From positions 47,464 through 111,463 of the IMG/VR virus record IMGVR_UViG_3300049491_001102: a stretch of 64,000 nucleotides of DNA; one strand, given 5' to 3'. Source of the DNA: a virus. Below the pieces are notes generated by a model. The model saw only the letters and a list, made by a program, of their open reading frames with translations. It did no database searches and was not told where the DNA came from. A program made the position numbers and the translations under genes. Of the stretch, positions 2,917 to 64,000 are shown piece after piece (within the stretch, counting starts at the first letter, position 1; every line of letters starts with the position of its first letter).

Positions 2917-5078
2917 GTGGTCAAAATCGTTTCTGTGCCCAACAGATGGACACCAATGCGCCAGTACGTCTTCGTTCCCGGACCATCATCTCCAGGCGTG
3001 CCATTAGGCTCGCGAATACCAACGATATGTTCGTGAGCACACTTCATGTAGTCCGCGATCTTGAACATAATGTCTCGTTGTTCATCCGTTAAAATCGTCG
3101 TTGAGACGATGAAGAATGAATACCACAACGGAGACCCAATACCAGGACCAATGATTGTGTTGACATTTAGGTTATGAATTCCTATTTGCCAGAAATCACG
3201 GTAGTTAAAGATGTCCAATGTGACCTCTACACCAGTGAAAAAGCGAATAGCGTTTATAACGCCTTCAGCCGTTCCCTTCTGTTTGTAGATAGGGACTAAA
3301 ATTCTCCCCAATTTTCTCTTCTGAGTCAAAGAGAGGTCTACGAACAGAAATGGATTCCCGAGGTCAGTTAATATCGCATCAACGAACTGCTCAGGTGCGA
3401 TGTCAAGGTCTATAATGTCTGTCCAATGGTCTATTTCACATAGTAGAAGGTCAACGACATCTTGTAGACATAAAATGAACTTCCGAAGTGGTTGGTCCAC
3501 CGACGAATCATCATCACGTCGATTCATCTGCGGGATTTTTTCCCACAAGTTCAATGACCGCCCAGCAGGCGCTATACATCGATATGCTGAGAAATCTGCG
3601 AAGTTGGCCGATGCGTTGATAACATTTTCTTGCAGATCGTAAGCGTTGTGAACGGTAACGCGATACGTTGCTGCCATTGTCATCTCAATGTCGAGCGCAA
3701 CGTCTACAGTGTAGCTATTGATGACCGTAACTCCAATTGCTTGGAGTGGGACTGCTGGCACTGTTTGGGCTGAGAATGAATAGTATGAAGGGTCATTGAT
3801 TGACTCAATGACCATAGCTTCACTAAAGAAAACACGGACAGTTTTTAGGTCTCTAGCTTGTGCGGACAGAACTGTTGGGTTCTGAACATCCGCCATGTAA
3901 AAAACCCAAGTTGTCTCACACTGGGTTATACCCGCTGTTCCAGAGTTAACGATGACTTCGATTGGCTGTTCTGAAACAAATGGGGCAATAACGTCTAACG
4001 GCACAGTGAACAGCAAATCATGAGCATCAGTATCTGGAACTGTAATGCTGCCGCCCACAAACGGTGCCACCCATGAACCCATGTTATAGGCTATTTGTCC
4101 ATTAACAATCACTGTTGTGATTGTCAGGTCAATTGGAATACCGGATGTGTTTACGATCTCAAATTGAAAGTCCGGACGAGAATGCGGGACTGCAATCTCA
4201 TTCGGCGGCGGCAACCTATTTCCAATGAAAACTGCACTTGGGATTGTATCGAGCTCAATAAAATCGAGATAAATCCCCGGGAGTTCAACAGGTCCTGGTC
4301 GTGCAACCGTAACCGCTTGCGCATCAAGTTGAAGCCCAAGACGAAGCTTCACAGGATCGGGGAGTGTGGTGATGTTGAGCACCACATCATCCAAAGTCGT
4401 CGTGTACTTGGTCCCACCATAAAGCAAGTTCTGGTCGGGAACGGACGGACCCATCGTGTCATCGTCAGCGAAGAATCTCCAGTAGAAGAAGTTTGTTGGT
4501 AGCGATGGGGGATACCCACTCTTTAACCGTGGCCAACGCGCCTCTCCATGCACACGAACAACTTTGGCGTTGTTCCGCGGTGCTTCCTGATACGTGATTA
4601 TTCTGTCACCGTAATGCAGGAACGGCCATATTTCGTTTTTCCTGTCATTACCAAGAACGAACGAATAGTGACCTTGCGTTCCGCTAACTTTGGTCCCCGG
4701 AAAATTGAACTTGTATTGAGCCAAACCGCCGACGATTTGGATGGAAGCCAAAAGTCCGGTTTTAACTGTTGTCAGCCTAACAGCGTTGTTATCCTCGACA
4801 GCGATAAGTTCTGGAACTTCAGCTCCGATTACAGCCGCCACTTCGATCGGGGAAGCAGATGTGATGTCAACGAAATCTATGCTGTCGAACGTCACCGATA
4901 CAGCATCTGCGCCATTAACACGCAACAGCAGCGTATCACCGTCAACAAGTGCATAGTTTCCATCAGACCCAGTAACGACCGTAGCGGGCTGCGGTAGGTC
5001 ATCCTCAGAGATCACGTGATTTTGCGGGTGAACGCGCCCTTGGTCGAGACCAAAGCGATAGTCGTACGGTGTTCGCAT
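2913..5078 (-). CDS. Baseplate wedge protein with C-terminal P2 gpI-like domain and Ig-like domains
   Basis: LWEKIP...APEQFVDAILTDLG...IYKQKGTAEGVINAIRFFTG is typical of Tail_P2_I; VRVFFSEAM Ig-like strand. Confidence 0.75.
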   Translation of the reverse strand: MRTPYDYRFGLDQGRVHPQNHVISEDDLPQPATVVTGSDGNYALVDGDTLLLRVNGADAVSVTFDSIDFVDITSASPIEVAAVIGAEVPELIAVEDNNAVRLTTVKTGLLASIQIVGGLAQYKFNFPGTKVSGTQGHYSFVLGNDRKNEIWPFLHYGDRIITYQEAPRNNAKVVRVHGEARWPRLKSGYPPSLPTNFFYWRFFADDDTMGPSVPDQNLLYGGTKYTTTLDDVVLNITTLPDPVKLRLGLQLDAQAVTVARPGPVELPGIYLDFIELDTIPSAVFIGNRLPPPNEIAVPHSRPDFQFEIVNTSGIPIDLTITTVIVNGQIAYNMGSWVAPFVGGSITVPDTDAHDLLFTVPLDVIAPFVSEQPIEVIVNSGTAGITQCETTWVFYMADVQNPTVLSAQARDLKTVRVFFSEAMVIESINDPSYYSFSAQTVPAVPLQAIGVTVINSYTVDVALDIEMTMAATYRVTVHNAYDLQENVINASANFADFSAYRCIAPAGRSLNLWEKIPQMNRRDDDSSVDQPLRKFILCLQDVVDLLLCEIDHWTDIIDLDIAPEQFVDAILTDLGNPFLFVDLSLTQKRKLGRILVPIYKQKGTAEGVINAIRFFTGVEVTLDIFNYRDFWQIGIHNLNVNTIIGPGIGSPLWYSFFIVSTTILTDEQRDIMFKIADYMKCAHEHIVGIREPNGTPGDDGPGTKTYWRIGVHLLGTETILTT

Positions 5079-5079
5079 A

Positions 5080-5811
5080 CTAAGAGGGTGGAACGAATGG
5101 TGTTGCCGTCTTTGCGATAGTAATGTGGTCTACTGCGCCCACAACACCTGGAACAGCGGAATAGAATCCATATCCAGCTCTACCTCCTCCGGTAAGTCCG
5201 GGAGTTCCAGAGTTTACACCGAGGGAATCGTCGTTATACGACGCCATTCCGGGGATTGCAGTCCAAACTGGCGCAGTCACTGGATTGACAGCTAGATTGT
5301 TCTGATAGCAGTTCAGAATGACGTCACCTGAGGGATTTACGATGCAATCCAACCGCAGATGAACCCACTCATTGAGCCCAATTTGGGCAGTTGATCGGCG
5401 CAGAACACCTGAACTACCCGGAGTGTCATCAGGCAAACCGCCAATGATCGTCCCTTTGCGTAGCATGATGTACCCTGGGTCCCCCGCGGATAAACCGATC
5501 ATGTAGGCAGTGGCGGTAAGAGCATCGTTCGACTGGCACTGAATAGCCAAGAACGTGCTCATATTTGCCTCATCACCGATGTAGCGCATGACTGCACCCG
5601 TGATTTGTCCACCTTCGCCAGAATCAATTGGGTCAAACCCTGCGATTGCACAATAGTTGGCTGTTACTCCAACAACTCCGGAGTTCAAAGCTCTCCAGCC
5701 AAAAATATGGCTTGCGCCACCATTTGGCAGTGGCAAACCAGCAGTCACTCCACGAGCGACTGAAGCAAGGTCTAAGGAGTTTACGAACTCAAACCAGTCG
5801 TCTGCTGCCAT
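5080..5811 (-). CDS. Virion structural protein (beta-sandwich)
   Basis: 243 aa, Gly/beta-rich, tightly packed in the tail operon. Confidence 0.55.
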   Translation of the reverse strand: MAADDWFEFVNSLDLASVARGVTAGLPLPNGGASHIFGWRALNSGVVGVTANYCAIAGFDPIDSGEGGQITGAVMRYIGDEANMSTFLAIQCQSNDALTATAYMIGLSAGDPGYIMLRKGTIIGGLPDDTPGSSGVLRRSTAQIGLNEWVHLRLDCIVNPSGDVILNCYQNNLAVNPVTAPVWTAIPGMASYNDDSLGVNSGTPGLTGGGRAGYGFYSAVPGVVGAVDHITIAKTATPFVPPS

Positions 5812-5812
5812 A

Positions 5813-7897
5813 TTACACCAAAGATGGGTTCCAGTATTTGCCAGGCCACTTGTACGATGGCATGACGAAATGATCTTCTACTATACTTATCTCAGACGGG
5901 TTCGTCCCGTCAATTTCTACTGTCATTGGTGTTCCCGGCACTTCTTGCAGTAACACCACGTGGAAAGCAAACTGATACGCTGATGTTTGAACAGTGTTTC
6001 CATTGTTTATGTTGGAAACAAGTTCTTGTGCAATAATAAACTCTGTGTCGCCCATTTGAGCAACATAAGAGAATCTAATGCCATCTATTGTTACAGAATA
6101 AATGTTTCCTACCGTACAAGCGTTGATCAGAATATCGGTGTGTTCAGGATTAGCAGGACTAAATGTCTCCACTATTCCCGGCTGTGAAAAATCACAGTAA
6201 TGAAGTTCACGTTCTGGTCCAAGGTCGTCAATGTCGTAGATATCTCGTTCATTGCCCATAGACGGGATACTCGTCTTGAACCCCCATTCCGTGTTGAACG
6301 TCTCTTCTTCAAGTGTATCGCTATTAAACATGGCGATAACTTCGTTGAAGGGATCGCCGAGCCACGTAAGAGTCAAACGGACATCCCAGTCCACGACATC
6401 GTAATAGTTCGAAGGGTACGGACCTATATTGTACCTGTAACCATTACCAAATGTCTCCACAACACCTGTAGTGTCAGGATACGTTGTCGTATTAAAAACA
6501 ACAGCTATAGTTGCCGTTATATCTGTATAAAACGGGAACCAGTCCATTGTTTCCCATAGAAACGGCCCATCACCACTCAATCCCCAGAATGCACCTGTGA
6601 CCGTACTCCCCGAAATATCGCTGGCATCAGTGAACGCATCAGGATCGGTACTCGCAGGCCAACCTTTGGCGAACATCTCGTAGGCGGAAGGGAACAGCGA
6701 AGGTCCGCTTTCTGCGAATTCAGCCAACTCCCAGCCTTGCGACAACACCTCCATTGACCACAAACGGGCATACCCGGGGTCGGACTGGCCGCGTGAAATA
6801 ACGTTGGTGGGAAACCCAAACACCACATTGGCCGCGCCGCCGATCACTTCGATTGTCGCGATGTCCCCCTGAAGCTGAGGGAACGTCGTCAATACCAGGT
6901 AAAAACCGTCCATCACTGCGGTTAGCCCCGTGTTTGCGGCTTCCAACGCGGCCGATATCTCCGATGCCTGAACATCGTCCATGTCGGCAATCAGGTCGGT
7001 ACCATCGACGGGAAGAGCAAATGCAAACAAGGCGGCTGCTGACCCGCCGGAGATCACAACCGTGGACGTGGTGCCATACGATGCGCTGACAATGGACACC
7101 GAATCCCCGGGGCCCACAACCGAGAGTGATTGCGTGGTCGCTGTGTTCACTGCGATCACGACCTCTGCGGCACTGACTGCGGTGATGTCTTGCACGTTGC
7201 CCACGCCCGCGGTGGTGGACGCAGTGGTAAATGCACTGGCTCCTGTTCCACCCAAAATTTGAATGCTCGCCGAATCCCCGAGCAAGTCGGTGACCAACTC
7301 AATGCTGCTAGGACCCGTCGGCGCAACCGAGACACCGAGCAGCGCGAGGCTCAGAACTGCGGCGACTTCAGACTGCGTAGCTGCGGAAATATCCGCAAAG
7401 TCCTCTTCGCGGAAAACAACCGTCTTGGACGGGCTTGTGTTAACTTTAACGATCAACGTTGCACCGTGGTACAGCGCGTACGTTGGGCCAGATGATGAAT
7501 CTAGAACGAGCTCGTACGCTGTTCCTTGAACCCATTGGACAGATGTCGTCGGTAAGCCATCAAATGACACATCTAGAGTGTCACTGCCACCAGACATGTC
7601 AAATGGACCTGATACACCAGAATTGACGTACCCATGAGTTCCTGGGTAGAACGCAACGTTGTGCTCAACACCGTTAACAACGATCCTGAGGTTGTACCCG
7701 ATGCCTAAAGCGTACGGCGACGTATTATTCGCATGTAACGTCGGGTACGTGCCTTTTGGTTCTTCAAACGATAAATTGCCGAAACCTGTTGATCCCCCAC
7801 CACCACCGACGATTGCAGTTCCGGATCCAGAACCTGGACCCAACGACCCGAATGCGCCAGAACCGTGGCCATGTGTGATGACAAGAGTGGCAACCAT
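5813..7897 (-). CDS. Virion structural protein with three nested copies of a sheath-like insertion domain
   Basis: Repeated PYAL...V.V.G and DI.A.T..EV motifs also seen in the sheath gene. Confidence 0.6.
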   Translation of the reverse strand: MVATLVITHGHGSGAFGSLGPGSGSGTAIVGGGGGSTGFGNLSFEEPKGTYPTLHANNTSPYALGIGYNLRIVVNGVEHNVAFYPGTHGYVNSGVSGPFDMSGGSDTLDVSFDGLPTTSVQWVQGTAYELVLDSSSGPTYALYHGATLIVKVNTSPSKTVVFREEDFADISAATQSEVAAVLSLALLGVSVAPTGPSSIELVTDLLGDSASIQILGGTGASAFTTASTTAGVGNVQDITAVSAAEVVIAVNTATTQSLSVVGPGDSVSIVSASYGTTSTVVISGGSAAALFAFALPVDGTDLIADMDDVQASEISAALEAANTGLTAVMDGFYLVLTTFPQLQGDIATIEVIGGAANVVFGFPTNVISRGQSDPGYARLWSMEVLSQGWELAEFAESGPSLFPSAYEMFAKGWPASTDPDAFTDASDISGSTVTGAFWGLSGDGPFLWETMDWFPFYTDITATIAVVFNTTTYPDTTGVVETFGNGYRYNIGPYPSNYYDVVDWDVRLTLTWLGDPFNEVIAMFNSDTLEEETFNTEWGFKTSIPSMGNERDIYDIDDLGPERELHYCDFSQPGIVETFSPANPEHTDILINACTVGNIYSVTIDGIRFSYVAQMGDTEFIIAQELVSNINNGNTVQTSAYQFAFHVVLLQEVPGTPMTVEIDGTNPSEISIVEDHFVMPSYKWPGKYWNPSLV

Positions 7898-24682: not shown

Positions 24683-26935
24683 TTATCCGTTAGCCAAGAG
24701 CTGTTCTAGGGCCCGTGTATCCTTTGTGAAGTCGAGGACAACCCATTCGACGGTATCGTTGGTGTTGAGGCCAACACGAGCTTTCAGTTGGCCAGAAGCC
24801 ACGACATCAGGTGTGTTGAGGCCAATTCCTTGGACGTCAACATCGACATAGAACGCAGTGGCCGGGTTCTTCGTCTTGAACGCGCCAACTTTCATCTGGG
24901 CGAGCAAGAAGTTGGTGATCGTACGCTCCACCTCAGCACGGAGTTCTTCCGTGTTGTTCCGGTGGCGTGCGAAGTCGGTTCCGAGCTTGATGCTTTGCTC
25001 GATGAAGATCACGCCGCGGCGAGCCGCAATGTTGGTGAAGTTTCCCCCCGACCTTAGAGTTCGGGTCCCATCGAGATTAAGCGCACCTCCCTGCGTGTCG
25101 ATCGGATTGATAAGCGCCGGGTAGACGTAGTCGCGCACCTCTTCTTTGAGGACTTGGTGCCGAACATTTCCATCCGGGTCATCTTCCAGGCCAACAATCG
25201 TTGGCATACGTCCATTTTCGATGCCGCAAGGAGCAATGTAGATCCCGCCTGGCCGCGCATTGTCTTGGCGCGCGCACATACCTGCGATGAGCCCGGTGTT
25301 CGGGATCGTGATGCTGTCGGCTGCGCCAAACACCGCCTTATTCGGGTTCAAAACCTTGACCCGAGGCCAAGCGATGAAGCCGAACTCGGTCGTGTTGAAT
25401 AGCCCCGTCGTGACCTTGACGTAGTTCACGATGGCGAGAGCATTCATGCCCGCGGGACATTCGATGAGCGGGAAGATCGACTTGTTACGCGTGATTTCGC
25501 AGTACGAAACCATCGCATTGGCCACGGCGGCCGTGGCTCGCTGCGGAATCGCGAGCAACGTCGCATCATTCACCGTATCCAGTGAGCGGATACCCGTTTC
25601 AGAAGCCGAGTTGCCCACGAAGTCGATGTCTGCAAGGCCAACCAGCCCGTCATCACCACCAGTCGGGGTGTACGTGCCATTCTGTGGCCTTTCACTTCCC
25701 CCTGCATCTTGGTCTTCAGCCAAGATCAATGCGGACCCGATACCGGGCGCAGCCAGTGCTGTTTCCACATATCGTGCGTCGGCGTCATCCATCGAGCAGT
25801 TCGGGAACTGCTCCACGATCAGGCCATTGCGCCGAATGATGAGGTTGAAGTGGTCGGGATCCAAGTCTGTGGCATCGGCAACTTCGATCGTTAGATCGTT
25901 TGCGTACGCACCCGGAGTCTTGCCCCGGAAAATCAACGTCGCTACTGGCGATCCCGCGGTACCGTTCACGGGTCCTGATGCCCAGCCAACTGCAGTTTGA
26001 ACCCCTGCAGACGCCGTGATTTCGAGTTCTGACGAAACACCTGTCGTGTCGGACACGATATCCGGGATTCCAGACCCCGAAGGTGATTGCTCGACAACCG
26101 ACAGACCCGCGAGCGCGCCCACGATAGAGATGACCTCGGCTAACGTCACCGCAGCCAAGTTCGCGACGTTGCCGGTACCGGCAACCGCTGCACCAAAGCC
26201 CAGGGCGGCAGCCGCAGTTCCGCCGGTGACATTGACCAGCGACGCAGTTCCTTTTTTGTCGCTGCGTAGCGTCACTGCGCTTACGGTGGAGGTCGCAGAC
26301 ACTCCCACCAAAATCGCGTTGAGCTTGGCCGCAACTTCGGCCGGCGTGGCAGCGCCAATCGAAATGAAGTCCGCGGTCAAGAACGTCACGGTTTGCGTCG
26401 CGCCGCCGTCTACCTGCACGGTCAGGTTCAAGCCGTTGGACAGCACATAGGGCGCCGACGCGCTGGTCACCGAACTCGACGCCGTGCCATTGAACGTAGC
26501 CGTGACGGGAGAACCGCCATCAACCGCGATCGACACATTGTCCCCATGCGCGAGCGCGTAGGGAGCAGCATTGACGCCGGGAAGTTTGGCCGCCGTGGCG
26601 GCGATGGTGTTGGCCGTGACCTCGGCCGTATCTGCCGTCAAACTCAGAGCATCGGTGATGTCGGAATAGTGGGCAGTCCGCGTGAACCAGAGGTATTGAC
26701 CTCCGGCGTCAAAATACGCACTGACCGAGTTCCACGTGTCGGCACAGTCCGCAGTGACATCGCCGTAGTCGCGCCGCCATGCGTCCCATGAAAAGTAAAA
26801 CTGAGCGACACCAATAGGACCACGCTGCGTAACACCGACCATCGCCAACACTGCGGTAATCAGCGATGGGATAGTACGAATGCCCGAAGTGCTCTCCGTG
26901 ATGATAGTTTTTGAAGAAAGCAATGCGTTAGACAT
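24683..26935 (-). CDS. Contractile tail sheath protein
   Basis: VGVTQRGPIG, TPGAYANDL, WPRV...PNTGLIAGMCARQD, INPI...GTRTL...RR motifs. Confidence 0.95.
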   Translation of the reverse strand: MSNALLSSKTIITESTSGIRTIPSLITAVLAMVGVTQRGPIGVAQFYFSWDAWRRDYGDVTADCADTWNSVSAYFDAGGQYLWFTRTAHYSDITDALSLTADTAEVTANTIAATAAKLPGVNAAPYALAHGDNVSIAVDGGSPVTATFNGTASSSVTSASAPYVLSNGLNLTVQVDGGATQTVTFLTADFISIGAATPAEVAAKLNAILVGVSATSTVSAVTLRSDKKGTASLVNVTGGTAAAALGFGAAVAGTGNVANLAAVTLAEVISIVGALAGLSVVEQSPSGSGIPDIVSDTTGVSSELEITASAGVQTAVGWASGPVNGTAGSPVATLIFRGKTPGAYANDLTIEVADATDLDPDHFNLIIRRNGLIVEQFPNCSMDDADARYVETALAAPGIGSALILAEDQDAGGSERPQNGTYTPTGGDDGLVGLADIDFVGNSASETGIRSLDTVNDATLLAIPQRATAAVANAMVSYCEITRNKSIFPLIECPAGMNALAIVNYVKVTTGLFNTTEFGFIAWPRVKVLNPNKAVFGAADSITIPNTGLIAGMCARQDNARPGGIYIAPCGIENGRMPTIVGLEDDPDGNVRHQVLKEEVRDYVYPALINPIDTQGGALNLDGTRTLRSGGNFTNIAARRGVIFIEQSIKLGTDFARHRNNTEELRAEVERTITNFLLAQMKVGAFKTKNPATAFYVDVDVQGIGLNTPDVVASGQLKARVGLNTNDTVEWVVLDFTKDTRALEQLLANG

Positions 26936-41680: not shown

Positions 41681-42298
41681 TTAACGACTCAAAGTTAGCG
41701 CCTGCTCGGGAGTATACCCGCGACGTCGGCGGCCTTCATACGTTGAACGAGGTATTTGTAACACGCGAAGCCAATAACTTGTAGCGCGAGTTTCACCGTT
41801 CAATGTGATCAATCTTGTTGTCCTTCTGTTTTCAGCTTGCTGTTGCTTCGTGGCCCAGCGACAGTTTGTAGGAGAATAATTCCCATTATTGTCTACTCTT
41901 TCAATAGAATAGCCAGTATCTGGTTTTCTTCCCATATCTGCTAAAAAATTTGAGTAAACGAGCCAGGACTCACAGATTTTTATTCCTCGCCCTCCGTACC
42001 GCGGATAATCTCTAGATGAAGGGTTATTACACCTGTCAAGTATATGCGACCACGATCGGTATTCACTCGTATGTTTACCCTTGCGGCTATCCCCGTGGGT
42101 TAACAACTTATTCCCACAAAGTTCACTGTGTTTGCATCCACAGCTTCTTGTGTTCCCCGTTGTTAAACTAGACCTTCTGATATTCAGTACACGACCGCAA
42201 GCACAAACACACTTGCAAGCCTTACGACCGTCATTGCTTGGCGCTTCATTTTCAAGAACCGTGAAAAACCCAAAAGTTTGCCCGACCAAATCACGCAT
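41681..42298 (-). CDS. Free-standing HNH homing endonuclease
   Basis: CVCACG...SCGC...RC.NP...YGGRGI...SIERVDNNGNYSPTNCRWAT. Confidence 0.9.
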   Translation of the reverse strand: MRDLVGQTFGFFTVLENEAPSNDGRKACKCVCACGRVLNIRRSSLTTGNTRSCGCKHSELCGNKLLTHGDSRKGKHTSEYRSWSHILDRCNNPSSRDYPRYGGRGIKICESWLVYSNFLADMGRKPDTGYSIERVDNNGNYSPTNCRWATKQQQAENRRTTRLITLNGETRATSYWLRVLQIPRSTYEGRRRRGYTPEQALTLSR

Positions 42299-47957: not shown

Positions 47958-47982
47958 TTTATAGTGTTAGAACAAAAAAGTT
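47958..47982 (-). promoter_or_regulatory. Phage promoter motif copy 1
   Basis: AACTTT-N11-ACTATAAA. Confidence 0.6.
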
Positions 47983-48029: not shown

Positions 48030-48054
48030 AACTTTTATCGCTAAACGCTATAAT
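48030..48054 (+). promoter_or_regulatory. Phage promoter motif copy 2
   Basis: AACTTT-N11-GCTATAAT, 8 nt before ATG 48063. Confidence 0.7.
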
Positions 48055-55251: not shown

Positions 55252-56874
55252 CTAGTCCCATCGGTCAATGAGATATTCGTTCCAGGCATTGTCCACGCAC
55301 GCGCGCACGTGAAGTCCCGTTGATTTTTGTCCAAAAAGAAAACCGCTTGCCAATAGTTCGGGACCGTCACCACTGGATATTGGGGTTGTGCGCGAATATG
55401 CCTCAAGTGTAGCCCTAACCTCATGCAACTCAGTGCGCAGCGTCTCTGGAAACAGTGCTAATGAATTTCGTCGCTGGTCCCGTGCATCCCGAAGAACAAA
55501 CATCACCTGCTGATTGATTGCTGGGTACTCGCCATGCCAATGACACGGCAATTTGGTCAATGCCAAGACATCGACCCATCCCAGAGGCAATCCCCATTGG
55601 CGAGGCGCACTCCCATTCACGTACAAATACCAGTTCACTGGATTCCGTGATTCTGGATTATCCCACTTGAATAGTGGTGCCGCATCCTCGTGCTCTGCAG
55701 TAACGAATGCTGCATAGCTATCCATCTGGTCGACCGTTCGAAACTGGAGTGCAGTGACACTGGGCAACACGGTCTGCTGAAACTTTACCTAGGTCATTCG
55801 CTGCTGCGGCAATGCGGTTGGTGCAACCTTGGGAGCTGCATCCTTGGTAGCCACCTTCCCGAAAAGGCCAGGCTTCTCCTCCGCGGTCAGGGTAACGGGT
55901 CGCCAAAAACTTACGATCTCGTCAAGCCGCGCGAACCGTCGGCGCAACGCCGAGGCAAGCCCGAGCTCTTGAAAGAGTTGCTCTGCTCGCTTCACGTTCT
56001 GCTCGCTCGGCGCGGCTTGGGGCCGTTGGTACCGAGTGGGGTCAACCATCGTCGCCATGCGCCGTGACATCTCGCTGAAATCCGTGCCTGCTTTCACCAT
56101 CTCCACGAGCTCACCTACGATCCCCGCTTTGGGGTGACAAAACCCTGGGCCTGCATGAGCGATCGCGTGCCAAACAATACGATCGGTCGCTCGTTGATCC
56201 CGTGCGGAATCCTTCTGCTTGCGCAAGTTGAGAAGCCAAGTCGCCGACCCTTTGGCTTTCTCAGTGCCGGGCAACTGGTTGGTGTTGAGGATGCGCACCA
56301 ACTCTTGCAAATGGTTGCTGGTTACCTCGCCCAGGAAGCGACTCACATTTTCGAAGTCGTGGCGCTTTGCCGCCTCAGCCCGCGAAGGTTCGGTAGCAAG
56401 ACCAGTCCACCCCGAAGGCAGGGTCACGTGGAAATGCTCCCAAGTGCCGGTCACGGGAGTGCCAAGCACTCGCTCCTTTGCCGAGAACGTTCCCACAATG
56501 GCTGCGTGTCGCACCAAACCCCGCAGGACGTTAATCGCTGGGGCGAAGATGTTGGTGTCCGGCACTTCCGGCCAAATTGCAGAGTGTGCAACCCCAAGCT
56601 CATCAAACACCACAAGGCCGCCGTATCGCTCGAAGAAATGACGACAGCTATTGCACGTGTAGTGCTGCCGCAACTCCTCAGGCAACCGACTCAAGAACAG
56701 CGAGAACAGTAAGGGTGCATCGGTGCGAAACAAGGGTGTTTTGCTCCCCACGATTCCGTCAAAGTGGCTCTTTACGAGAGCCTTGAGCGAAACGTAATCA
56801 AACCCATGGTGTTGATGCTGTTGGTGTTGTTGCTCTTGTGCTTGTACTTGTTGATCGTTCATAGCGTTTCTCAC
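55252..56874 (-). pseudogene. Single ~540-codon gene interrupted by an in-frame TAG at 55789-55791
   Basis: ORFs 55789..56874 and 55252..55770 share a frame: ...RMT*VKFQQTVLP... Confidence 0.6.
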
Positions 56875-58031: not shown

Positions 58032-58056
58032 TTAATAGCTTGAGTCGAGGAAAGTT
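58032..58056 (-). promoter_or_regulatory. Phage promoter motif copy 3
   Basis: AACTTT-CCTCGACTCAA-GCTATTAA. Confidence 0.65.
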
Positions 58057-58376: not shown

Positions 58377-58401
58377 TTAATAGCTTGAGCACGAAAAAGT
58401 T
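58377..58401 (-). promoter_or_regulatory. Phage promoter motif copy 4
   Basis: AACTTT-TTCGTGCTCAA-GCTATTAA. Confidence 0.65.
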
Positions 58402-58510: not shown

Positions 58511-59158
58511 ATGGCCGCCACTACAAATAACCGTGCCGTCTGGCCGTTCTCGGAAAACTTCCCAAACTGGTACCTATCCCGGAAAGGTTATCGGCGATGT
58601 GACCCCACCAGTATTCGCAACATTTTGCAGAGTCGCCGACCATACCATCCCGTAGACCTGAAAGAGTTAATGCGTATTCTACAGATAGAATTTCACGCGT
58701 TCTTACCGGGAACACGTGGTGGAACCTTTTCTTACTGCCAAGGTGTCCGCATTGACAGCAAAGCGAACAAAGTCAAGTTGTCCTACAATTTCGCCGAAAC
58801 TGAAGATGTATCCCGCTTTGTCGTAGCTCATGGGTTGGCGCACGTGGTCGCCCACGGGCGACAGCCTGACATTCCTGTACTAAAAGATTGCCACCACATT
58901 AACTGCTATCTCCGGTGCGACCACACGGAGTTGCACGTCAGCGCGAACTGGTTTGCACGCGAGCTTCTAATCCCGAGCGATGAAGTCGTGGACATAGCTA
59001 AGCACCATGCCGAACTTCCAGGGTTTAAGTACAGCCAAGAAAGTAAACATGGTGTGTACGGGTTGGTCTCAACTTTAGTGCCAAAGATAGCCAAAATGTA
59101 CAATGTACCAACAGGGTGCGCACAAGCGGCTCTAGACCACAACATGGACAAACTATGA
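58511..59158 (+). CDS. ImmA/IrrE (Peptidase M78)-like protein, catalytic Glu replaced
   Basis: PVDL...RFVVAHGLAH...ANWFARELLIP...IAKMYNV. Confidence 0.8.
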   Translation: MAATTNNRAVWPFSENFPNWYLSRKGYRRCDPTSIRNILQSRRPYHPVDLKELMRILQIEFHAFLPGTRGGTFSYCQGVRIDSKANKVKLSYNFAETEDVSRFVVAHGLAHVVAHGRQPDIPVLKDCHHINCYLRCDHTELHVSANWFARELLIPSDEVVDIAKHHAELPGFKYSQESKHGVYGLVSTLVPKIAKMYNVPTGCAQAALDHNMDKL

Positions 59159-59718
59159 GTCATAACAGTGGACCTGCCCCAAAGTGGTTCGAACTCCGAG
59201 CGCAGACTGACCCCTGCACACCACAGGATGTCCTCACATTGTGCACTCGTGACCCGGGGTCCCCAGTTCCCATCGCTGAGCTAGCAGACACCCTAAATAT
59301 CGCCGTCTACGCAACCGCGATCCGGTACCCAAGCGACATCAAGTGCATCCACTCCATTTTCGGGGTCCTGGAAGGAACCCATTACGCCGGCGTCTGCCAC
59401 CTCACCAACCACGATGCGGTCACAACCCGGCGCCACATCGCCCACGGGATTGGCCACATCTTCCGTGGGACTACGGGCATTCCCCACCTCGTACGCTGTG
59501 AGGGCGACGCCGAAACATCGCCTGCCCACCAGTTCGCACTGGGGCTGCTGATGCCCGAAGACGAGGTTCGCCAAATCATCCACATCGGCATCGAAACACA
59601 GGTCGGGGGTGCGCGCATCATCACGGAGGTGGCTCGCCGCTACGAAGTCCCACACCGGGATGCCCAACTCCATGTCTTCAACCTACTGACCCGCTGGTTT
59701 TCCGATGCCAAAGTGTAA
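59155..59718 (+). CDS. Second ImmA/IrrE-like protein, catalytic Glu replaced
   Basis: PVPIAELADTLNI...IAHGIGH...AHQFALGLLMP...VARRYEV; ATGA overlap. Confidence 0.78.
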   Translation: MSHNSGPAPKWFELRAQTDPCTPQDVLTLCTRDPGSPVPIAELADTLNIAVYATAIRYPSDIKCIHSIFGVLEGTHYAGVCHLTNHDAVTTRRHIAHGIGHIFRGTTGIPHLVRCEGDAETSPAHQFALGLLMPEDEVRQIIHIGIETQVGGARIITEVARRYEVPHRDAQLHVFNLLTRWFSDAKV

Positions 59719-60025
59719 ACCATGTATGTACGTCGTGTGCTGTGACACGGTTGGACAAATCGGTGTTCTTAGACCGTGGGGAGAATTTTCGCAGATTAAA
59801 AAGCACAAGATACGACTGTTCCGAAAACAGGAAGCAGTGGCAGAAGCAGTGAGACAGTCTATGGGTGTACTGGCGGCGTTTCAACCATTCTATGTTCGCC
59901 GTGTGCGACGTTCCGAGCGAAAACAGCATAAACAGGCATTAGACGGACGTATGCCATTTTCAAACTTTACACCTGCGCTACAATCCGACGTAGTAATAAG
60001 AGTTATTCACATACGTGAAGATTGA
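59705..60025 (+). CDS. Array paralogue 1
   Basis: YVVC...L...GEF...LFRKQEAVAEAVR...FYVR. Confidence 0.7.
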   Translation: MPKCKPCMYVVCCDTVGQIGVLRPWGEFSQIKKHKIRLFRKQEAVAEAVRQSMGVLAAFQPFYVRRVRRSERKQHKQALDGRMPFSNFTPALQSDVVIRVIHIRED

Positions 60026-60028
60026 AAC

Positions 60029-60451
60029 ATGTCCAAACGTAAACAGCCACTATACGTTGTCTGCTTTGAGTTGGCAGACGGAACCATCTCTACTCTTAAA
60101 ACACACGGAGGATTTGCTATTAGCAATGTTTACCCAGAATTGTTCCTACACAAAGAGGAAGCCGAAGCAGAAACTGTTCGATTCGCACTCGTGAACGCGG
60201 GTAAGGGTAAGTTCTATACACGTCGCACGCACAAACGTGGGGACCAAACACCACGCAAACCTATTCCTGCACTTGAATCGCAAGGATCTGGCATCAAATG
60301 TGCGCGTATAGATCTGCTCATAATGGACGATAAAATCGACAACAAACTGCCGAGGGCCTTAGCTAAGCATATAAACATGATGTCTGTGTACGCGGTAAAA
60401 CCTGGAGATATCATAAAAATTCTTCCTAAAACCATTGTCCATGAAGACTAG
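60029..60451 (+). CDS. Array paralogue 2
   Basis: YVVC...GGF...LFLHKEEAEAETVR...FYTR. Confidence 0.75.
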   Translation: MSKRKQPLYVVCFELADGTISTLKTHGGFAISNVYPELFLHKEEAEAETVRFALVNAGKGKFYTRRTHKRGDQTPRKPIPALESQGSGIKCARIDLLIMDDKIDNKLPRALAKHINMMSVYAVKPGDIIKILPKTIVHED

Positions 60452-60671
60452 GAGAAATCCTCTTTTTACCGTTAACTGCACGTGGAGAAACCAAGACTAC
60501 GTTCTCCACATTAACGGACACTTTACACAATTTGGCAGTGGCCAACTATTTCATACGCGTGAAGAGGCGACAGCACGACTTGTTGCTGTCGCGCTAACCA
60601 GGGATTCCAACGAAGGTGAACTCTACGTAAAAGAGGTCACAAAGCCAAAGAGACGAAATGACAGACCCTAA
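60441..60671 (+). CDS. Array paralogue 3
   Basis: FTV...VLHINGHF...LFHTREEATARLV...LYVK. Confidence 0.75.
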   Translation: MKTRRNPLFTVNCTWRNQDYVLHINGHFTQFGSGQLFHTREEATARLVAVALTRDSNEGELYVKEVTKPKRRNDRP

Positions 60672-60918
60672 CGGATCAGGAAGCTTCTATGCCATATATC
60701 TCATATGGCAAGATACAGCGCTTGTACTGTGCAAAGACGGAAAATGGATGCCGGAAACTTTTGATAAAAGACTGTTCTACAACCGTGAAGAAGCGGTTGC
60801 AGAAACCGTCCGCCAAACGATGGCATCTGATATGACAAACAAAAAGTTCATCATTCGTAAAGTTGCCAGTGCCGAGCTACCAGTTGGTATTAATCCTGCA
60901 CTATGGAAGCAAACGTAA
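60658..60918 (+). CDS. Array paralogue 4
   Basis: YAI...VLCKDGKW...LFYNREEAVAETVR...FIIR. Confidence 0.75.
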   Translation: MTDPNGSGSFYAIYLIWQDTALVLCKDGKWMPETFDKRLFYNREEAVAETVRQTMASDMTNKKFIIRKVASAELPVGINPALWKQT

Positions 60919-61130
60919 AATATGTCATTTGTTACGAAATTGACAGTATGGAGCACGTACTAAGCTCTACCGGACGATTTGTCATCGCCAGTCCATATAT
61001 ACTGATTTTTAACAATGAAGATAGCGCACAAACTGAACTCATCCGAATAGTACTAGCGACCGGCACAACAGAAGGGTGTCAGTTCTACGTGCGCAAAGCT
61101 ACAGAGGATGAAATTCATGGTCGGTGCTAA
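60903..61130 (+). CDS. Array paralogue 5
   Basis: YVIC...VLSSTGRF...IFNNEDSAQTELIR...FYVR. Confidence 0.75.
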   Translation: MEANVKYVICYEIDSMEHVLSSTGRFVIASPYILIFNNEDSAQTELIRIVLATGTTEGCQFYVRKATEDEIHGRC

Positions 61131-61504
61131 GCCAAAAGACCGTAACAGACTGGGTGACCGCCCGCGCTGAGAACTCTCCCCCAAAAATCACAACCATGAC
61201 CGGCATCCATCCAGACACAGAGTTCTACGTCGTTCGCTACATCGTCAGCACGGACAAATACCCTGGCAATCCCTTTGAGCTCTGCCAAAACGGGGAGTTC
61301 TACAGCGTAACCGAAGCCATTCGACCCATGGACGCCTCCGGTCGATTCGTTCAGATCTTCGACACTGAAGAAGAGGCCCTTGCGGTCATTGTTCGCTTTG
61401 TGCTCACCAACCCACCAGTTCCCGGCAAGAAGTTCTTCACCCACAAAGTCCGCTGGGGTGACATCACTGGTGAGCCTACAACCCCGCGCTTCCCTTTCGG
61501 CTAG
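61124..61504 (+). CDS. Array paralogue 6
   Basis: FYVVR...ELCQNGEF...IFDTEEEALAVIVR...FFTH. Confidence 0.75.
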   Translation: MLSQKTVTDWVTARAENSPPKITTMTGIHPDTEFYVVRYIVSTDKYPGNPFELCQNGEFYSVTEAIRPMDASGRFVQIFDTEEEALAVIVRFVLTNPPVPGKKFFTHKVRWGDITGEPTTPRFPFG

Positions 61505-61571
61505 ATAACTAAAAATAGATGACCCAAACGATACGTTGATTCCGTTCCCGTTGACGAATTGTGGAATCCAA

Positions 61572-61925
61572 ATGGCGAGTCTTAAATCAGAACGAGAACT
61601 CTTCGTCGTGCGAGGCCGAATAGCCGCCAATACCGTGGTACTGCACAACGATGGGAAATTTTATCGACCTAGCCCGCGCGCTCGAATTTTCTTTACGCTA
61701 GAAGATGCAACTGCTGAACTTGTTCGGGAAGCATTAACTAACACATGCGGTCTGTACGAGGATCTACAGGTCTACCAAACAACCGTAGTGGAAATCTCAA
61801 GTTGGGCACAATCCCCACACGAGTCCACTACCATCGAGTACATAGAAGGTGGACCGATAAAGCCGCGCAAAATCGACATCGATATGGAACAGTGGGATCC
61901 ACTTAGGTGCCCTGTATATGAATGA
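61572..61925 (+). CDS. Array paralogue 7
   Basis: FVVR...VLHNDGKF...IFFTLEDATAELVR. Confidence 0.75.
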   Translation: MASLKSERELFVVRGRIAANTVVLHNDGKFYRPSPRARIFFTLEDATAELVREALTNTCGLYEDLQVYQTTVVEISSWAQSPHESTTIEYIEGGPIKPRKIDIDMEQWDPLRCPVYE

Positions 61926-62175
61926 ACAGATCTTTGTTGTCTGCTGCGTTAATGAACAACTCGTACTTGAACTGGCGACCAACGGACACTTTTACGAGCC
62001 AAGTCAACACGCCAGACGGTTCCGTACCCACGAGGAGGCAACGGCAGAACTTGTCCGGCAAGTCCTTAGATGCGAACCGATCGGGTTCAAGTTTTTCGTG
62101 CAAATGCTAACCCTGCAAGAAATCCTTGGTCGTATCACGGCGACGAACCATCCCCCCAATAACGTCTGCCAATGA
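61918..62175 (+). CDS. Array paralogue 8
   Basis: FVVC...ELATNGHF...FRTHEEATAELVR...FFVQ. Confidence 0.75.
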   Translation: MNEQIFVVCCVNEQLVLELATNGHFYEPSQHARRFRTHEEATAELVRQVLRCEPIGFKFFVQMLTLQEILGRITATNHPPNNVCQ

Positions 62176-62453
62176 CGACACCAACCACAACTCCTAAGTT
62201 CTTCGTGGTGCGCTACAACATTCGCCGCGTTTATTTTGAGCTCGCCGTCGACGATACATTCCGCGCTCCGGGTAAAAACTCAAGACGCTTTGATACTGAA
62301 GAAGAGGCCACGGCAGCACTTGTTCGTCATGCACTCGCAAACCCTAATGTGACTGACAAGAAGTATTACGTGCACCAACCAGGACACCCCGAATACATCC
62401 GCGTCTACGACCCATGGTTTCCAACCGCAACCAAATCACCAAATAACCCATGA
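62172..62453 (+). CDS. Array paralogue 9
   Basis: FVVR...ELAVDDTF...FDTEEEATAALVR...YYVH. Confidence 0.75.
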   Translation: MTTPTTTPKFFVVRYNIRRVYFELAVDDTFRAPGKNSRRFDTEEEATAALVRHALANPNVTDKKYYVHQPGHPEYIRVYDPWFPTATKSPNNP

Positions 62454-62716
62454 CCTACCACTCCACGGTGACAAAGCGCTTGATCGTGTGCGCGACCGTA
62501 TCTCGCAAAACGTACATTCTCGACAAAGACGGACAGTTCGGCCCAACAAGTGCATCCGCCAAGATTTTCCTGGATGAAGAAGAAGCAAAGGCAGAACTCG
62601 TCCGCCAGTCCCTCATCACCTGGACACCACACGCCCAATTCTATCTCCGAACCATCGATATAAACGCGCACTTCTTTCTTCTCGCGCAGGCAAAAGATGA
62701 CGACCCCAAACCCTGA
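62450..62716 (+). CDS. Array paralogue 10
   Basis: LIVC...ILDKDGQF...IFLDEEEAKAELVR...FYLR. Confidence 0.75.
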   Translation: MTYHSTVTKRLIVCATVSRKTYILDKDGQFGPTSASAKIFLDEEEAKAELVRQSLITWTPHAQFYLRTIDINAHFFLLAQAKDDDPKP

Positions 62717-62954
62717 CGATCGCATCTTTGTTCTACACGTCGAGTGGCAGGGCAATGTCCTAAAGGACGATACGTCCACCCCGGTATTCGAAACGGAAGA
62801 CGAAGCGATGGCCGAACTCGTGAGGCTATCCCTCCATTGGAACACACCAGACATTAAGTTCTCGCTGCACACCATCCGCCGCGAAGACTATTGCCCAAAA
62901 ACTATTGAGCAAATCCTTTGCCCACCCGGGATGACCACCGATGACGACACGTGA
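62697..62954 (+). CDS. Array paralogue 11
   Basis: FVLH...VFETEDEAMAELVR...TPDIKF. Confidence 0.75.
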   Translation: MTTPNPDDRIFVLHVEWQGNVLKDDTSTPVFETEDEAMAELVRLSLHWNTPDIKFSLHTIRREDYCPKTIEQILCPPGMTTDDDT

Positions 62955-63165
62955 CCTGGATGAGCGTGCGTTCGTGATTCGGATGGACGTGCGTGGCGAA
63001 ATCCTTGAACTCGATGACGAAAACGAGTTCTTCGAGCCAAGTCCGTTCGCGCAGCTTTTTGATACCGAAGATGAAGCAACCGCAGAAGTTGTTCGCCTCA
63101 TCCTCGACTGGGCAACCCCAGATATTCGGATTTACGTGCACCCCGTCCGCCTCAAAGACTACTAA
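62941..63165 (+). CDS. Array paralogue 12
   Basis: AFVIRM...LFDTEDEATAEVVR...TPDIRIYVHPV. Confidence 0.75.
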   Translation: MTTRDLDERAFVIRMDVRGEILELDDENEFFEPSPFAQLFDTEDEATAEVVRLILDWATPDIRIYVHPVRLKDY

Positions 63166-63198
63166 CCGTGCAACGCTTTCTTTTCGAACCAACAAAAG

Positions 63199-63444
63199 AT
63201 GACAGCCCAAAACCATAACGAGCAGGCATTCGTGATCTGCATGGAAATACGCGATATTATATACATGTTTAATACGGATGACTATTACTCCTTTCCTGGA
63301 CCTACTACACGTATTTTCAGCACTGAAGATGAAGCAACCGCGGAAACCGTCCGCTTACTATTTCAGTGCACAACCCCAAACACCAAGATTTACGTGCACC
63401 CGGTTTCTCGCAGTCAATATTTGCACTGGGGCGTCACCCAGTGA
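63199..63444 (+). CDS. Array paralogue 13
   Basis: AFVICM...IFSTEDEATAETVR...TPNTKIYVHPV. Confidence 0.75.
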   Translation: MTAQNHNEQAFVICMEIRDIIYMFNTDDYYSFPGPTTRIFSTEDEATAETVRLLFQCTTPNTKIYVHPVSRSQYLHWGVTQ

Positions 63445-64000
63445 ACGTTCCCCGGCTCCCACGGCGCGGCCGAATCTAATCTTCGTAGTCTTGCGCGCTT
63501 GTCGCTTTTGCGCCCCAAGCAGTGCAAGAAATCCCGGAAATCTTCCCAGCTCTCGTCGACCCGCAAGTGCACCGGCCATTCCCATATTGGGGGGATCGTG
63601 CACCCCGGGCCAAACCACTCGCGAACCCCCGCGTTCGCCCGCGCCCACATATTCTTCCACGCCCGATACTCGCTCGACCCCCCGTCGCTCCCAACATGCT
63701 CCCCATGCTTGGTGAGCCACACCTTCGGCACCAACGCCGCCGCCCGATAGCGTAACCGACACCCACAACACGTCCTCGCCCCACTCAACAGGTGGTCCCT
63801 CCGGGCGAATGTCTCCTGCCCGCAGTCGCAGATGCATCGCCAAACTCGGCTTCGCCGAACGACGGCGGCTGTCGCCGCGAAGGCGGTCAAGTAGCCGAAC
63901 TGCTCGCCGGTGATGTCGCGATTGCGCAGGTGGTACGGGAGCGGGAGTCGTGGCGGTGGCTTTGGCTTGGCAGGGGTGGTGGCTGTTGTTGGTAATGAGG
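63414..64000 (-). CDS. Degenerate HNH-endonuclease-like protein, 5' end beyond window
   Basis: Frame open to the window edge (RDITGEQFGYLTA...CICDCG...CCGC...EYRAW...PGNVHWVT); homologous to 41681..42298 but lacks RC.NP/YGGRGI. Confidence 0.7.
   Translation of the reverse strand, partial: SLPTTATTPAKPKPPPRLPLPYHLRNRDITGEQFGYLTAFAATAAVVRRSRVWRCICDCGQETFARRDHLLSGARTCCGCRLRYRAAALVPKVWLTKHGEHVGSDGGSSEYRAWKNMWARANAGVREWFGPGCTIPPIWEWPVHLRVDESWEDFRDFLHCLGRKSDKRARLRRLDSAAPWEPGNVHWVTPQCKY

What the first reader, a model, noticed from the sequence alone, without database searches (positions are those of the whole stretch)
59705..63444. Tandem array of 13 diverged paralogues of one small domain
Seen: 13 consecutive plus-strand ORFs of 74-140 aa, mostly overlapping or abutting. 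All share the pattern [YF]VV-x-hL-xxx-G-x-F-x-FxTEEEAxAELVRxxL-x-FYV while the intervening positions are highly variable. Copies 11-13 are most alike, and copies 12 and 13 still share DNA (GAAGATGAAGCAACCGC, GATTTACGTGCACCC), which suggests serial duplication at the distal end. No copy is interrupted. Inference: a conserved scaffold with diversified surfaces, kept intact as one operon, is what an expandable panel of host-interaction proteins would look like (anti-defence inhibitors, decoys or adaptors). I do not recognise the family.
Basis: partly seen in the sequence, partly recalled or inferred. Interest (0 to 1): 0.9.

Follow-up and report, generated by a model that had tools for sequence, protein, structure and literature searches.

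The report
Orphan 13-gene paralogue array in phage
An uncultured 111-kb tailed phage carries 13 old, very diverged copies in a row (plus two more nearby) of one small protein that was found nowhere else in public data; it looks like a panel of binding proteins, but its function is untested.

Summary
Thirteen intact plus-strand ORFs (59705-63444) form one family. Each copy is found by a profile of the other twelve at E <= 1e-11, and the quoted motif and the DNA words shared by copies 12 and 13 are present. Two more members lie on the opposite strand at the other end of the 111,463-bp virus record, probably about 1.5 kb away if the genome is circularly permuted.

Conserved positions are core hydrophobics plus a helix cap, and nothing looks catalytic. 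pI runs from 10.2 to 4.2 along the array. Synonymous sites are saturated, so the duplications are old.

The array is one tightly packed operon behind two paralogous ImmA/IrrE-like genes that read H-G-x-x-H. My best guess is a co-expressed panel of non-enzymatic binders aimed at host or defence targets (about 0.4).

This scan has already noted paralogue arrays of other families in other phages, so the kind is known. This family is new.

The parts
58511..59158 (+). ImmA/IrrE-like (Peptidase_M78) gene a, first gene of the plus-strand operon. The zinc motif reads H-G-L-A-H, so the catalytic Glu is absent.
   Evidence: Pfam PF06114 at E 2.2e-6, above the cut-off. PHROG 1914. The motif was read in the translation. 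Paralogue of the next gene.
59155..59718 (+). ImmA/IrrE-like gene b, paralogue of gene a. The motif reads H-G-I-G-H.
   Evidence: PF06114 at E 3.9e-4, just under the cut-off. phrog_87 metallo-protease. 25% identity to gene a, E 5e-7.
59705..60025 (+). Copy 1 (106 aa, or 99 aa from the ATG at 59726). pI 10.2, with a basic C-terminal tail.
   Evidence: Leave-one-out E 8e-12.
60029..60451 (+). Copy 2 (140 aa). Core domain plus a C-terminal extension of about 70 aa with no confident fold. pI 9.5.
   Evidence: Leave-one-out E 4e-12. AF2: core pLDDT 85-98, tail below 55.
60435..60671 (+). Copy 3 (78 aa, or 76 aa from the ATG at 60441). pI 10.0.
   Evidence: Leave-one-out E 1e-12.
60658..60918 (+). 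Copy 4 (86 aa). pI 7.8.
   Evidence: Leave-one-out E 3e-14.
60903..61130 (+). Copy 5 (75 aa). pI 4.8.
   Evidence: Leave-one-out E 5e-13.
61196..61504 (+). Copy 6 (102 aa from the ATG at 61196; the longest ORF starts at GTG 61124). It has a 10-residue insertion in the loop between strands 2 and 3.
   Evidence: Leave-one-out E 2e-12. A 102-aa gene call is in the protein library.
61572..61925 (+). Copy 7 (117 aa from the ATG at 61572; the longest ORF starts at TTG 61536). It has a C-terminal extension.
   Evidence: Leave-one-out E 2e-14. A 117-aa gene call is in the library.
61918..62175 (+). Copy 8 (85 aa). pI 6.0.
   Evidence: Leave-one-out E 1e-20. The ESM Atlas holds it with pTM 0.67.
62172..62453 (+). 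Copy 9 (93 aa). pI 9.3. ATGA overlap with copy 8.
   Evidence: Leave-one-out E 1e-19.
62450..62716 (+). Copy 10 (88 aa). pI 6.8. ATGA overlap with copy 9.
   Evidence: Leave-one-out E 1e-15.
62697..62954 (+). Copy 11 (85 aa). pI 4.4. It lacks 13 residues of the strand 2-3 region.
   Evidence: Leave-one-out E 4e-13.
62941..63165 (+). Copy 12 (74 aa). pI 4.2. This is the bare domain and the copy that was modelled.
   Evidence: Leave-one-out E 6e-22. AF2 mean pLDDT 89.9, pTM 0.76.
63199..63444 (+). Copy 13 (81 aa). pI 5.1. Last gene of the operon; its 3' end overlaps the convergent HNH gene by 31 nt.
   Evidence: Leave-one-out E 3e-21.
63414..64000 (-). Convergent HNH endonuclease gene that runs off the contig end. 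It is context, not a family member, and it separates the array from the two minus-strand members at the other contig end.
   Evidence: phrog_374 at E 1.3e-23. Paralogue at window 41681-42298. The frame stays open across the joined contig ends.

Best explanation
The region is an old, lineage-specific tandem expansion of one orphan domain of about 70 residues. There are 13 copies in one plus-strand operon and at least 2 more on the facing strand. The domain has four strands and one helix, in the order strand-strand-strand-helix-strand.

Shown:
- The copies are real protein-coding paralogues kept under purifying selection.
- They share a hydrophobic core and a helix cap.
- They differ almost everywhere else, including net charge.
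- They have no detectable relative outside this genome.

Inferred:
- The copies are made together from one polycistronic transcript. That transcript starts at the divergent promoter region near 58400, ahead of two catalytically degenerate ImmA/IrrE-like genes.
- The proteins are not enzymes. They act as a panel of small binding proteins in which each copy presents a different surface on the same scaffold.
- The most likely targets are host proteins, for example defence or takeover targets. This would make the array a phage counterpart of bacterial 'homogeneous polyimmunity loci'.
- A conserved exposed stripe on the helix (E45, E49, R52 in copy 12) may be either intrahelical stabilisation or a docking face for a partner common to all copies. 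I cannot tell which.
For: Family and selection:
- Leave-one-out profile E-values of 8e-12 to 6e-22 for all 13 copies.
- Observed alignment scores far above shuffled controls.
- All frames are open although synonymous sites are saturated and pN (0.32-0.51) is below pS (0.60-0.86) in every pair tested.

Scaffold and fold:
- About 20 conserved columns are core hydrophobics, one Gly, a T-E-E-E helix N-cap and an E/R pair. No conserved Cys, His, Ser or Asp pattern is present.
- Confident AF2 models of two copies that are 22% identical (alignment identities) give the same order of elements: pLDDT 89.9 for copy 12, and 85-98 for the core of copy 2.
- pI runs from 10.2 to 4.2 across copies.

Co-expression:
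- Same strand, with overlaps of 4-20 nt.

Genome position:
- It is the only sizeable plus-strand unit at the non-structural end of a genome otherwise read on the minus strand. Replication genes lie at 10-35 kb and structural genes at 47-105 kb.

Orphan status:
- No match in Pfam, PHROGs, PADLOC or NCBIfam.
- The word-indexed search of 5.8 billion proteins and the exhaustive HMM search of 1.84 billion representatives return only the contig's own genes, plus one spurious repeat protein.
- The array is by far the largest paralogue family of this genome.

Precedents for the kind:
- Tandem arrays in phages G and 121Q (PMC5646251).
- Polyimmunity loci made of distantly related tandem paralogues read from one message (PMC3482391).
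Against: - There is no expression or timing evidence.
- No plus-strand promoter was recognised upstream, and Shine-Dalgarno motifs are absent before the starts. SD-like motifs are also rare genome-wide (10 of 43 long ORFs).
- Positive selection cannot be assessed because dS is saturated.
- The copies are old and no relative exists for comparison, so there is no sign of the copy-number turnover expected in an active arms race.
- The host is unknown.
- The conserved acidic helix start could point to a shared ligand rather than diversified targets.
Confidence: 0.4

Rival explanations
1. The copies are small nucleic-acid-binding or regulatory proteins, for example modulators of transcription or translation, or RNA binders with a HicB-N/dsRBD-like strand-strand-strand-helix-strand fold. 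They would have been duplicated to act on different phage or host sites.
For: The order of secondary-structure elements is the one I recall for HicB N-terminal domains (own knowledge, not tested by superposition). Copies 1-3 are strongly basic (pI 9.5-10.2) with Lys/Arg-rich tails after the last strand. A conserved Arg sits on the helix.
Against: Five copies are strongly acidic (pI 4.2-5.1), which does not fit a shared nucleic-acid-binding role. The Pfam HicB-like model finds nothing in the genome at E <= 1, and no Pfam family matches any copy at a meaningful level: at E <= 1 there were only two single-copy chance-level hits, E 0.073 and 0.2. No HicB or dsRBD chain appears among the 50 best structural rows.
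Confidence: 0.15
2. The array is an immunity or antitoxin-like battery. Each copy would neutralise a different toxin: host abortive-infection or toxin-antitoxin toxins, or toxins of competing phages or bacteria. This would be a true phage polyimmunity locus. It is a special case of the main reading with a narrower class of targets.
For: The architecture matches the definition of homogeneous polyimmunity loci: tandem, distantly related paralogues of one small alpha+beta family read from one message (PMC3482391). The array is co-located with ImmA/IrrE-like genes, a family I recall as often linked to toxin-antitoxin-like and stress modules (own knowledge).
Against: No Imm family, antitoxin family or toxin domain was found in the copies or in the neighbours scanned. 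No toxin gene lies beside the array.
Confidence: 0.15
3. The copies are virion-associated or injected proteins (internal, decoration or ejection proteins) that were duplicated for structural or early-entry roles.
For: Some phages package families of small proteins, such as the T4 internal proteins (own knowledge). Many copies begin alike with M-T.
Against: The array lies outside the structural, packaging and lysis block and is read in the opposite direction. No conserved N-terminal targeting or cleavage tag exists beyond M-T; column entropy at positions 3-9 is high.
Confidence: 0.07
4. The copies are functionless remnants of past duplications that drift neutrally.
For: No homologues, no known function and very low identity between copies.
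Against: Thirteen frames of 74-140 codons are all open. The core motif is kept in every copy although synonymous sites are saturated, and pN is below pS in every pair. Start/stop overlaps are tight and maintained.
Confidence: 0.03

Closest known systems
Tandem multi-copy gene arrays of large phages (phage G and 121Q; Hua et al. 2017, mBio, PMC5646251)
   Same: A long run of same-strand paralogues of one small protein of unknown function in a large tailed phage, interpreted as tandem duplication.
   Different: [quoted passage not shown] Here there are 13 (+2) copies at only about 20-45% identity, with saturated synonymous sites, in a 111-kb genome. The family is unrelated by sequence.
Homogeneous polyimmunity loci of bacteria (e.g. 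SUKH arrays; Zhang et al. 2012, PMC3482391)
   Same: Tandem, distantly related paralogues of one small non-enzymatic family, packed so that they are probably read from one message. The logic is a fixed scaffold with many specificities.
   Different: Those loci are bacterial, belong to named Imm/SUKH families and are linked to polymorphic toxins. Here the element is a phage, no Imm family matches and no toxin gene is nearby.
Anti-CRISPR chain A of PDB 8G9S (AcrIC8 or AcrIC9 bound to type I-C Cascade; Hu et al., bioRxiv 10.1101/2023.08.05.552134)
Uncharacterised small phage proteins of similar predicted fold (BFVD hits, e.g. Cellulophaga phage phi18:3 R9ZZQ6, Sinorhizobium phage phiM12 S5MDG1; ESM Atlas clusters including DUF2849 and DUF7336)
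   Same: Similar size and predicted fold (TM 0.6-0.73, Foldseek probability about 1.0).
   Different: E-values are only 6e-3 to 0.1, identity is 8-21%, none has a known function, and none is reported as an array.

Membership tests
HicB-like antitoxin N-terminal domain (Pfam PF15919) | Match to the family profile | tested here: not met
   No PF15919 match in any copy at E <= 1. No match in a six-frame search of the whole genome at E <= 1, while the same search found matches in 11 of the 14 control genomes, 3 of them above the family cut-off.
HicB-like antitoxin N-terminal domain (Pfam PF15919) | Shared strand-strand-strand-helix-strand fold shown by superposition on a solved HicB | tested here: inconclusive
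   The order of elements in the models agrees with what I recall for HicB. No HicB chain is among the 50 best rows of either VIA-align search, but absence from a list does not exclude the fold.
HicB-like antitoxin N-terminal domain (Pfam PF15919) | Adjacent HicA toxin gene | tested here: not met
   Neighbours on both sides are ImmA/IrrE-like, S24-like and HNH genes or other copies. No HicA-like family was reported.
Anti-CRISPR proteins (AcrIC8/AcrIC9 type) | Sequence or clear structural relationship to a validated Acr | tested here: inconclusive
Anti-CRISPR proteins (AcrIC8/AcrIC9 type) | Linked Aca (HTH) regulator gene | tested here: not met
   No HTH family was found in the ten neighbours scanned against Pfam.
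Anti-CRISPR proteins (AcrIC8/AcrIC9 type) | Inhibition of a CRISPR-Cas effector | not testable with these tools
   This needs an interference assay, and the host and its CRISPR type are unknown.
Phage tandem multigene arrays (phage G / 121Q type) | Ten or more same-strand adjacent paralogues of one small protein in a tailed phage | tested here: met
   13 adjacent plus-strand copies. The genome encodes sheath, tape measure, portal and TerL.
Phage tandem multigene arrays (phage G / 121Q type) | Copies 'very similar' to each other, implying recent duplication | tested here: not met
   Identity is about 20-45% and pS is 0.60-0.86, i.e. saturated.
Homogeneous polyimmunity locus (Zhang et al. 2012) | Four or more tandem, distantly related paralogues of one small family in one transcription unit | tested here: met
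   The definition was read in PMC3482391. The single transcript is inferred from the gene overlaps and is not shown.
Homogeneous polyimmunity locus (Zhang et al. 2012) | Membership of a known immunity family, or linkage to a toxin gene | tested here: not met
   No Pfam or NCBIfam family matches any copy. No toxin domain was found in the neighbours.

The most novel reading that the evidence does not exclude
The family is a phage-born binder scaffold with no relative elsewhere, diversified into a panel of at least 15 members. Each copy neutralises a different host defence or takeover target. The conserved E45/E49/R52 helix face docks all copies onto one shared partner. This would be a phage 'polyimmunity' or adaptor library built on a new fold family.
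Probability: 0.2. Interest if true: 0.75.

Novelty: new variant of a known kind. Interest (0 to 1): 0.45.

Why it matters
Diverged multi-copy families in viruses are a recurrent marker of host-virus conflict, yet almost none in phages has an assigned function. This one is compact (bare domain of 74 residues), folds confidently in silico, spans a wide range of charge and has no homologues. If the copies prove to be inhibitors or adaptors, they would add a new small scaffold to the anti-defence repertoire and offer a natural set of 15 variants on one frame for studying how binding specificity diversifies. If they do something else, they still mark a poorly sampled phage lineage. The value is limited for now by the unknown host and the lack of relatives.

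Tried and rejected
- HicB-like idea. I first read the motif as HicB-N/UPF0150-like. Pfam scans of all copies and a six-frame PF15919 search of the genome found nothing, and no HicB chain appeared in the structural lists. I dropped it as a membership claim. Only the fold-order resemblance remains, and that rests on memory.
- Known-family scans. Pfam, PHROGs, PADLOC and NCBIfam gave nothing for any copy.
- Homologue searches. The word-indexed search and the exhaustive profile search returned only the contig's own proteins. The one outside hit, P0013, is a 919-residue translation of a simple tandem repeat with 11 short partial matches, which I judge spurious. Caveat: the two minus-strand members score only about 21 bits against the 13-copy profile. 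Equally distant relatives elsewhere would therefore be invisible at whole-library E-values.
- Isolate phages. tblastn of copies 8 and 12 against 50,697 phage records gave one chance-level hit (E 0.6) and none. blastn of the locus gave no match.
- Related phages. The search for related loci failed with the family alignment because no stretch was conserved enough. It found no close relatives with the M78 gene, the PF26675 neighbour or the sheath protein. A profile of the PF26675 neighbour then fetched 80 distant IMG/VR loci. The family HMMs found nothing in their 19,136 ORFs; the best E was 0.29.
- ESM Atlas. Only unnamed clusters and DUFs, at scores under 0.9.
- dN/dS among the closest copies is not interpretable because dS is saturated or undefined.
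- Complex prediction of M78 gene b with copy 12 returned 'no answer' (score 0.00). This is no evidence either way.
- Promoter, terminator and Rfam scans of the locus gave nothing above background.
I used secondary structure and helix periodicity instead.

Full report
**What is there.** The window is the last 64 kb (positions 47464-111463) of a 111,463-bp IMG/VR virus record that CheckV rates as complete and that has no end repeats. From 59705 to 63444 the plus strand carries 13 consecutive open reading frames of 74-140 codons. Under the longest-ORF starts, neighbours overlap by 4-20 nt or lie 3-33 nt apart. For copies 6 and 7 the internal ATGs at 61196 and 61572 are the likelier starts. They reproduce the common M-T/M-A beginning and the 102- and 117-residue gene calls held in the protein library. 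These starts leave two gaps of about 66 nt.

**Is it more than chance?** Yes.
- Pairwise BLASTP E-values are mostly 1e-4 to 1e-21.
- Smith-Waterman scores average 64, against 23.6 +/- 4.2 for shuffled partners.
- Each copy is recovered by a profile built from the other twelve at E between 8e-12 and 6e-22, with all 1581 ORFs of the genome as search space.
- The two DNA words it quoted occur exactly twice each, once in copy 12 and once in copy 13.
- Copies 11-13 are the closest (43-45% identity), and similarity falls with distance along the array (Spearman -0.40, Mantel p = 0.001). This fits serial tandem duplication.

**More members outside the window.** The 13-copy profile also finds two ORFs on the minus strand at the start of the record, at genome positions 910-1155 and 1152-1502 (E about 1e-5). 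A third ORF at 1390-1716 aligns by eye but is not found independently. The HNH endonuclease gene that converges on copy 13 (window 63414 onward, phrog_374 at E 1.3e-23) has no start codon before the contig ends. Joining the contig end to its start keeps the frame open and supplies an ATG. The record is therefore probably a circular permutation. If so, the two minus-strand copies lie only about 1.5 kb from copy 13, reading towards it. No further member exists in the genome, and this is by far its largest paralogue family.

**Age and selection.** Even among the closest copies the proportion of synonymous differences is 0.60-0.86, which is saturated. Non-synonymous differences are 0.32-0.51. dN/dS values are therefore not meaningful. 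Still, pN is below pS in every pair, and all frames and the core motif are intact. The copies have been kept as coding genes for a long time. Nothing indicates recent or ongoing expansion.

**The protein.** AlphaFold2 with the 16-row family alignment gives a confident model of copy 12: mean pLDDT 89.9, pTM 0.76, strands at 9-17, 20-25 and about 30, helix at 43-56, strand at 62-70. Copy 2 is only 22% identical (alignment identities) and gives the same order of elements for residues 1-70 at pLDDT 85-98. Its 70-residue C-terminal extension is not confidently folded. Both models use the same alignment, so they are not independent. The ESM Atlas separately holds copy 8 with pTM 0.67.

The conserved columns fall into four groups:
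- the hydrophobics of the strands and the inner face of the helix;
- one Gly;
- a T-E-E-E stretch at the helix start, which fits a helix N-capping box (established knowledge of helix capping);
- an E/R pair on the outer face of the helix.

There is no conserved Cys, His, Ser or Asp pattern of the kind enzymes or metal sites show. Mean column entropy is 2.0 bits in the secondary-structure elements and 2.6 in the loops. The loop between strands 2 and 3 and the region before the helix also vary in length. Predicted pI runs from 10.2, 9.5 and 10.0 in copies 1-3 to 4.4, 4.2 and 5.1 in copies 11-13. This is what a fixed scaffold with diversified surfaces looks like. It argues against one shared electrostatic ligand such as DNA.

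**Is the family known?** No.
- Pfam, PHROGs, PADLOC and NCBIfam give nothing.
- The word-indexed search of 5.8 billion proteins returns only the contig's own genes.
- The exhaustive profile search of 1.84 billion representatives returns 12 of the contig's own copies plus one 919-residue translation of a simple tandem repeat, which I judge spurious.
- tblastn against 50,697 phage records gives nothing.
- Foldseek finds no solved relative.
- Among predicted viral structures, many uncharacterised small phage proteins share the fold at TM 0.6-0.73.

One caveat applies. The two minus-strand members score only about 21 bits against the 13-copy profile, so equally distant relatives in other genomes would not pass a whole-library threshold.

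**Context.** The phage is a myovirus-type tailed phage with sheath, tape measure, portal and an intein-bearing TerL. Its replication and recombination genes lie at 10-35 kb. Nearly everything is read on the minus strand. It has no close relative among isolates: the portal is about 30% identical to Bacillus, Rhizobium and Agrobacterium phages, and the sheath about 24%.

The array belongs to the only sizeable plus-strand unit. This unit starts after a 135-bp divergent region near 58400. It opens with two genes that match Peptidase_M78 (ImmA/IrrE) and are paralogues of each other. Both read H-G-x-x-H where the family has H-E-x-x-H, so the catalytic Glu is missing (read in the translations). The unit faces a small S24-like gene and an H-E-x-x-H protein on the other strand.

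The neighbour gene of family PF26675 is widespread in phages. In 80 loci fetched around its homologues, none of the 19,136 ORFs matches the array family. The array is thus not a conserved companion of that gene.

**How it most likely works.**
- Shown: a co-oriented, tightly packed set of 13 (+2) old paralogues under purifying selection, with a confident small alpha/beta fold, a conserved core and no catalytic signature. The surfaces and charges are diversified, no relatives were found, and the array sits outside the structural and replication blocks.
- Inferred: the copies are made together and act as non-enzymatic binders with different specificities, most likely towards host proteins (defence or takeover targets). 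The nearest concept in bacteria is the homogeneous polyimmunity locus: tandem, distantly related paralogues of one small family read from one message, thought to cover many toxins (PMC3482391). The nearest precedent in phages is the tandem gene array of phages G and 121Q (PMC5646251), although those copies are described as very similar.

I put this reading at about 0.4. Rivals are nucleic-acid-binding regulators (0.15), a strict immunity/antitoxin battery (0.15), virion or injected proteins (0.07) and neutral remnants (0.03). The remainder is 'something else'.

**Verdict.**
- The kind, a diverged multigene array in a large phage, is known, and this scan has already noted arrays of other families in other phages. 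This family is new and so far unique to one genome.
- Interest is moderate. It is a clean, compact and well-folding orphan family, but the host, relatives and expression data needed to take it further are all missing.

Noticed in passing
window 58511-59718 (+): The two ImmA/IrrE-like (Peptidase_M78) genes at the head of the operon are paralogues (25% identity, E 5e-7). Both read H-G-x-x-H instead of H-E-x-x-H, so they probably bind but do not cleave.
   Followed up: partly
window 55252-56874 (-): The PF26675/phrog_1735 gene is split here into a 361-aa ORF (N-terminal part) and a 172-aa ORF (C-terminal part). Its 80+ homologues elsewhere are mostly single proteins of about 520-545 aa.
   Followed up: partly
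window 63414-64000 (-) and genome positions 1-270: The HNH endonuclease gene has no start codon before the contig end. Joining the contig end to the contig start keeps the frame open and supplies an ATG, which suggests a circularly permuted, complete genome. A paralogous HNH gene lies at window 41681-42298.
   Followed up: partly
genome positions 1814-6250 (L011, minus strand): The ORFan region next to the two minus-strand family members holds two more paralogue pairs: 3420-3914 with 4704-5078 (E 2e-18), and 1814-2179 with 5198-6250 (E 4e-5). None has a Pfam match.
   Followed up: partly
window 2913-5078, 5813-7897, 24683-26935 (-): Three large proteins share sheath-like similarity (phrog_15814; BLASTP E 5.5e-8). 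The genome therefore encodes two extra sheath-related paralogues near the tail-fibre end.
   Followed up: no
window 47958-47982, 48030-48054, 58032-58056, 58377-58401: The motif AACTTT-N11-RCTATWAW occurs four times exactly. At least at some genes it abuts the annotated ATG. SD-like motifs precede only 10 of 43 long ORFs. This suggests unusual promoters and possibly leaderless or SD-poor translation, which is a clue to the host.
   Followed up: partly
window 59705-61130 versus 61196-63165: Copies 1-5 have a low GC3 (0.38-0.46) compared with the genome's long genes (0.575) and with copies 6 and 10-12 (0.59-0.68). The array is compositionally heterogeneous, for unknown reasons.
   Followed up: no
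window 60029-60451 and 61572-61925: The C-terminal extensions of copies 2 and 7 share a short motif (G-x-I-K-x-x-[RK]-I-D-[LI]), and copies 1 and 2 end alike (H-I-R-E-D / V-H-E-D). The extension of copy 2 is not confidently folded.
   Followed up: partly
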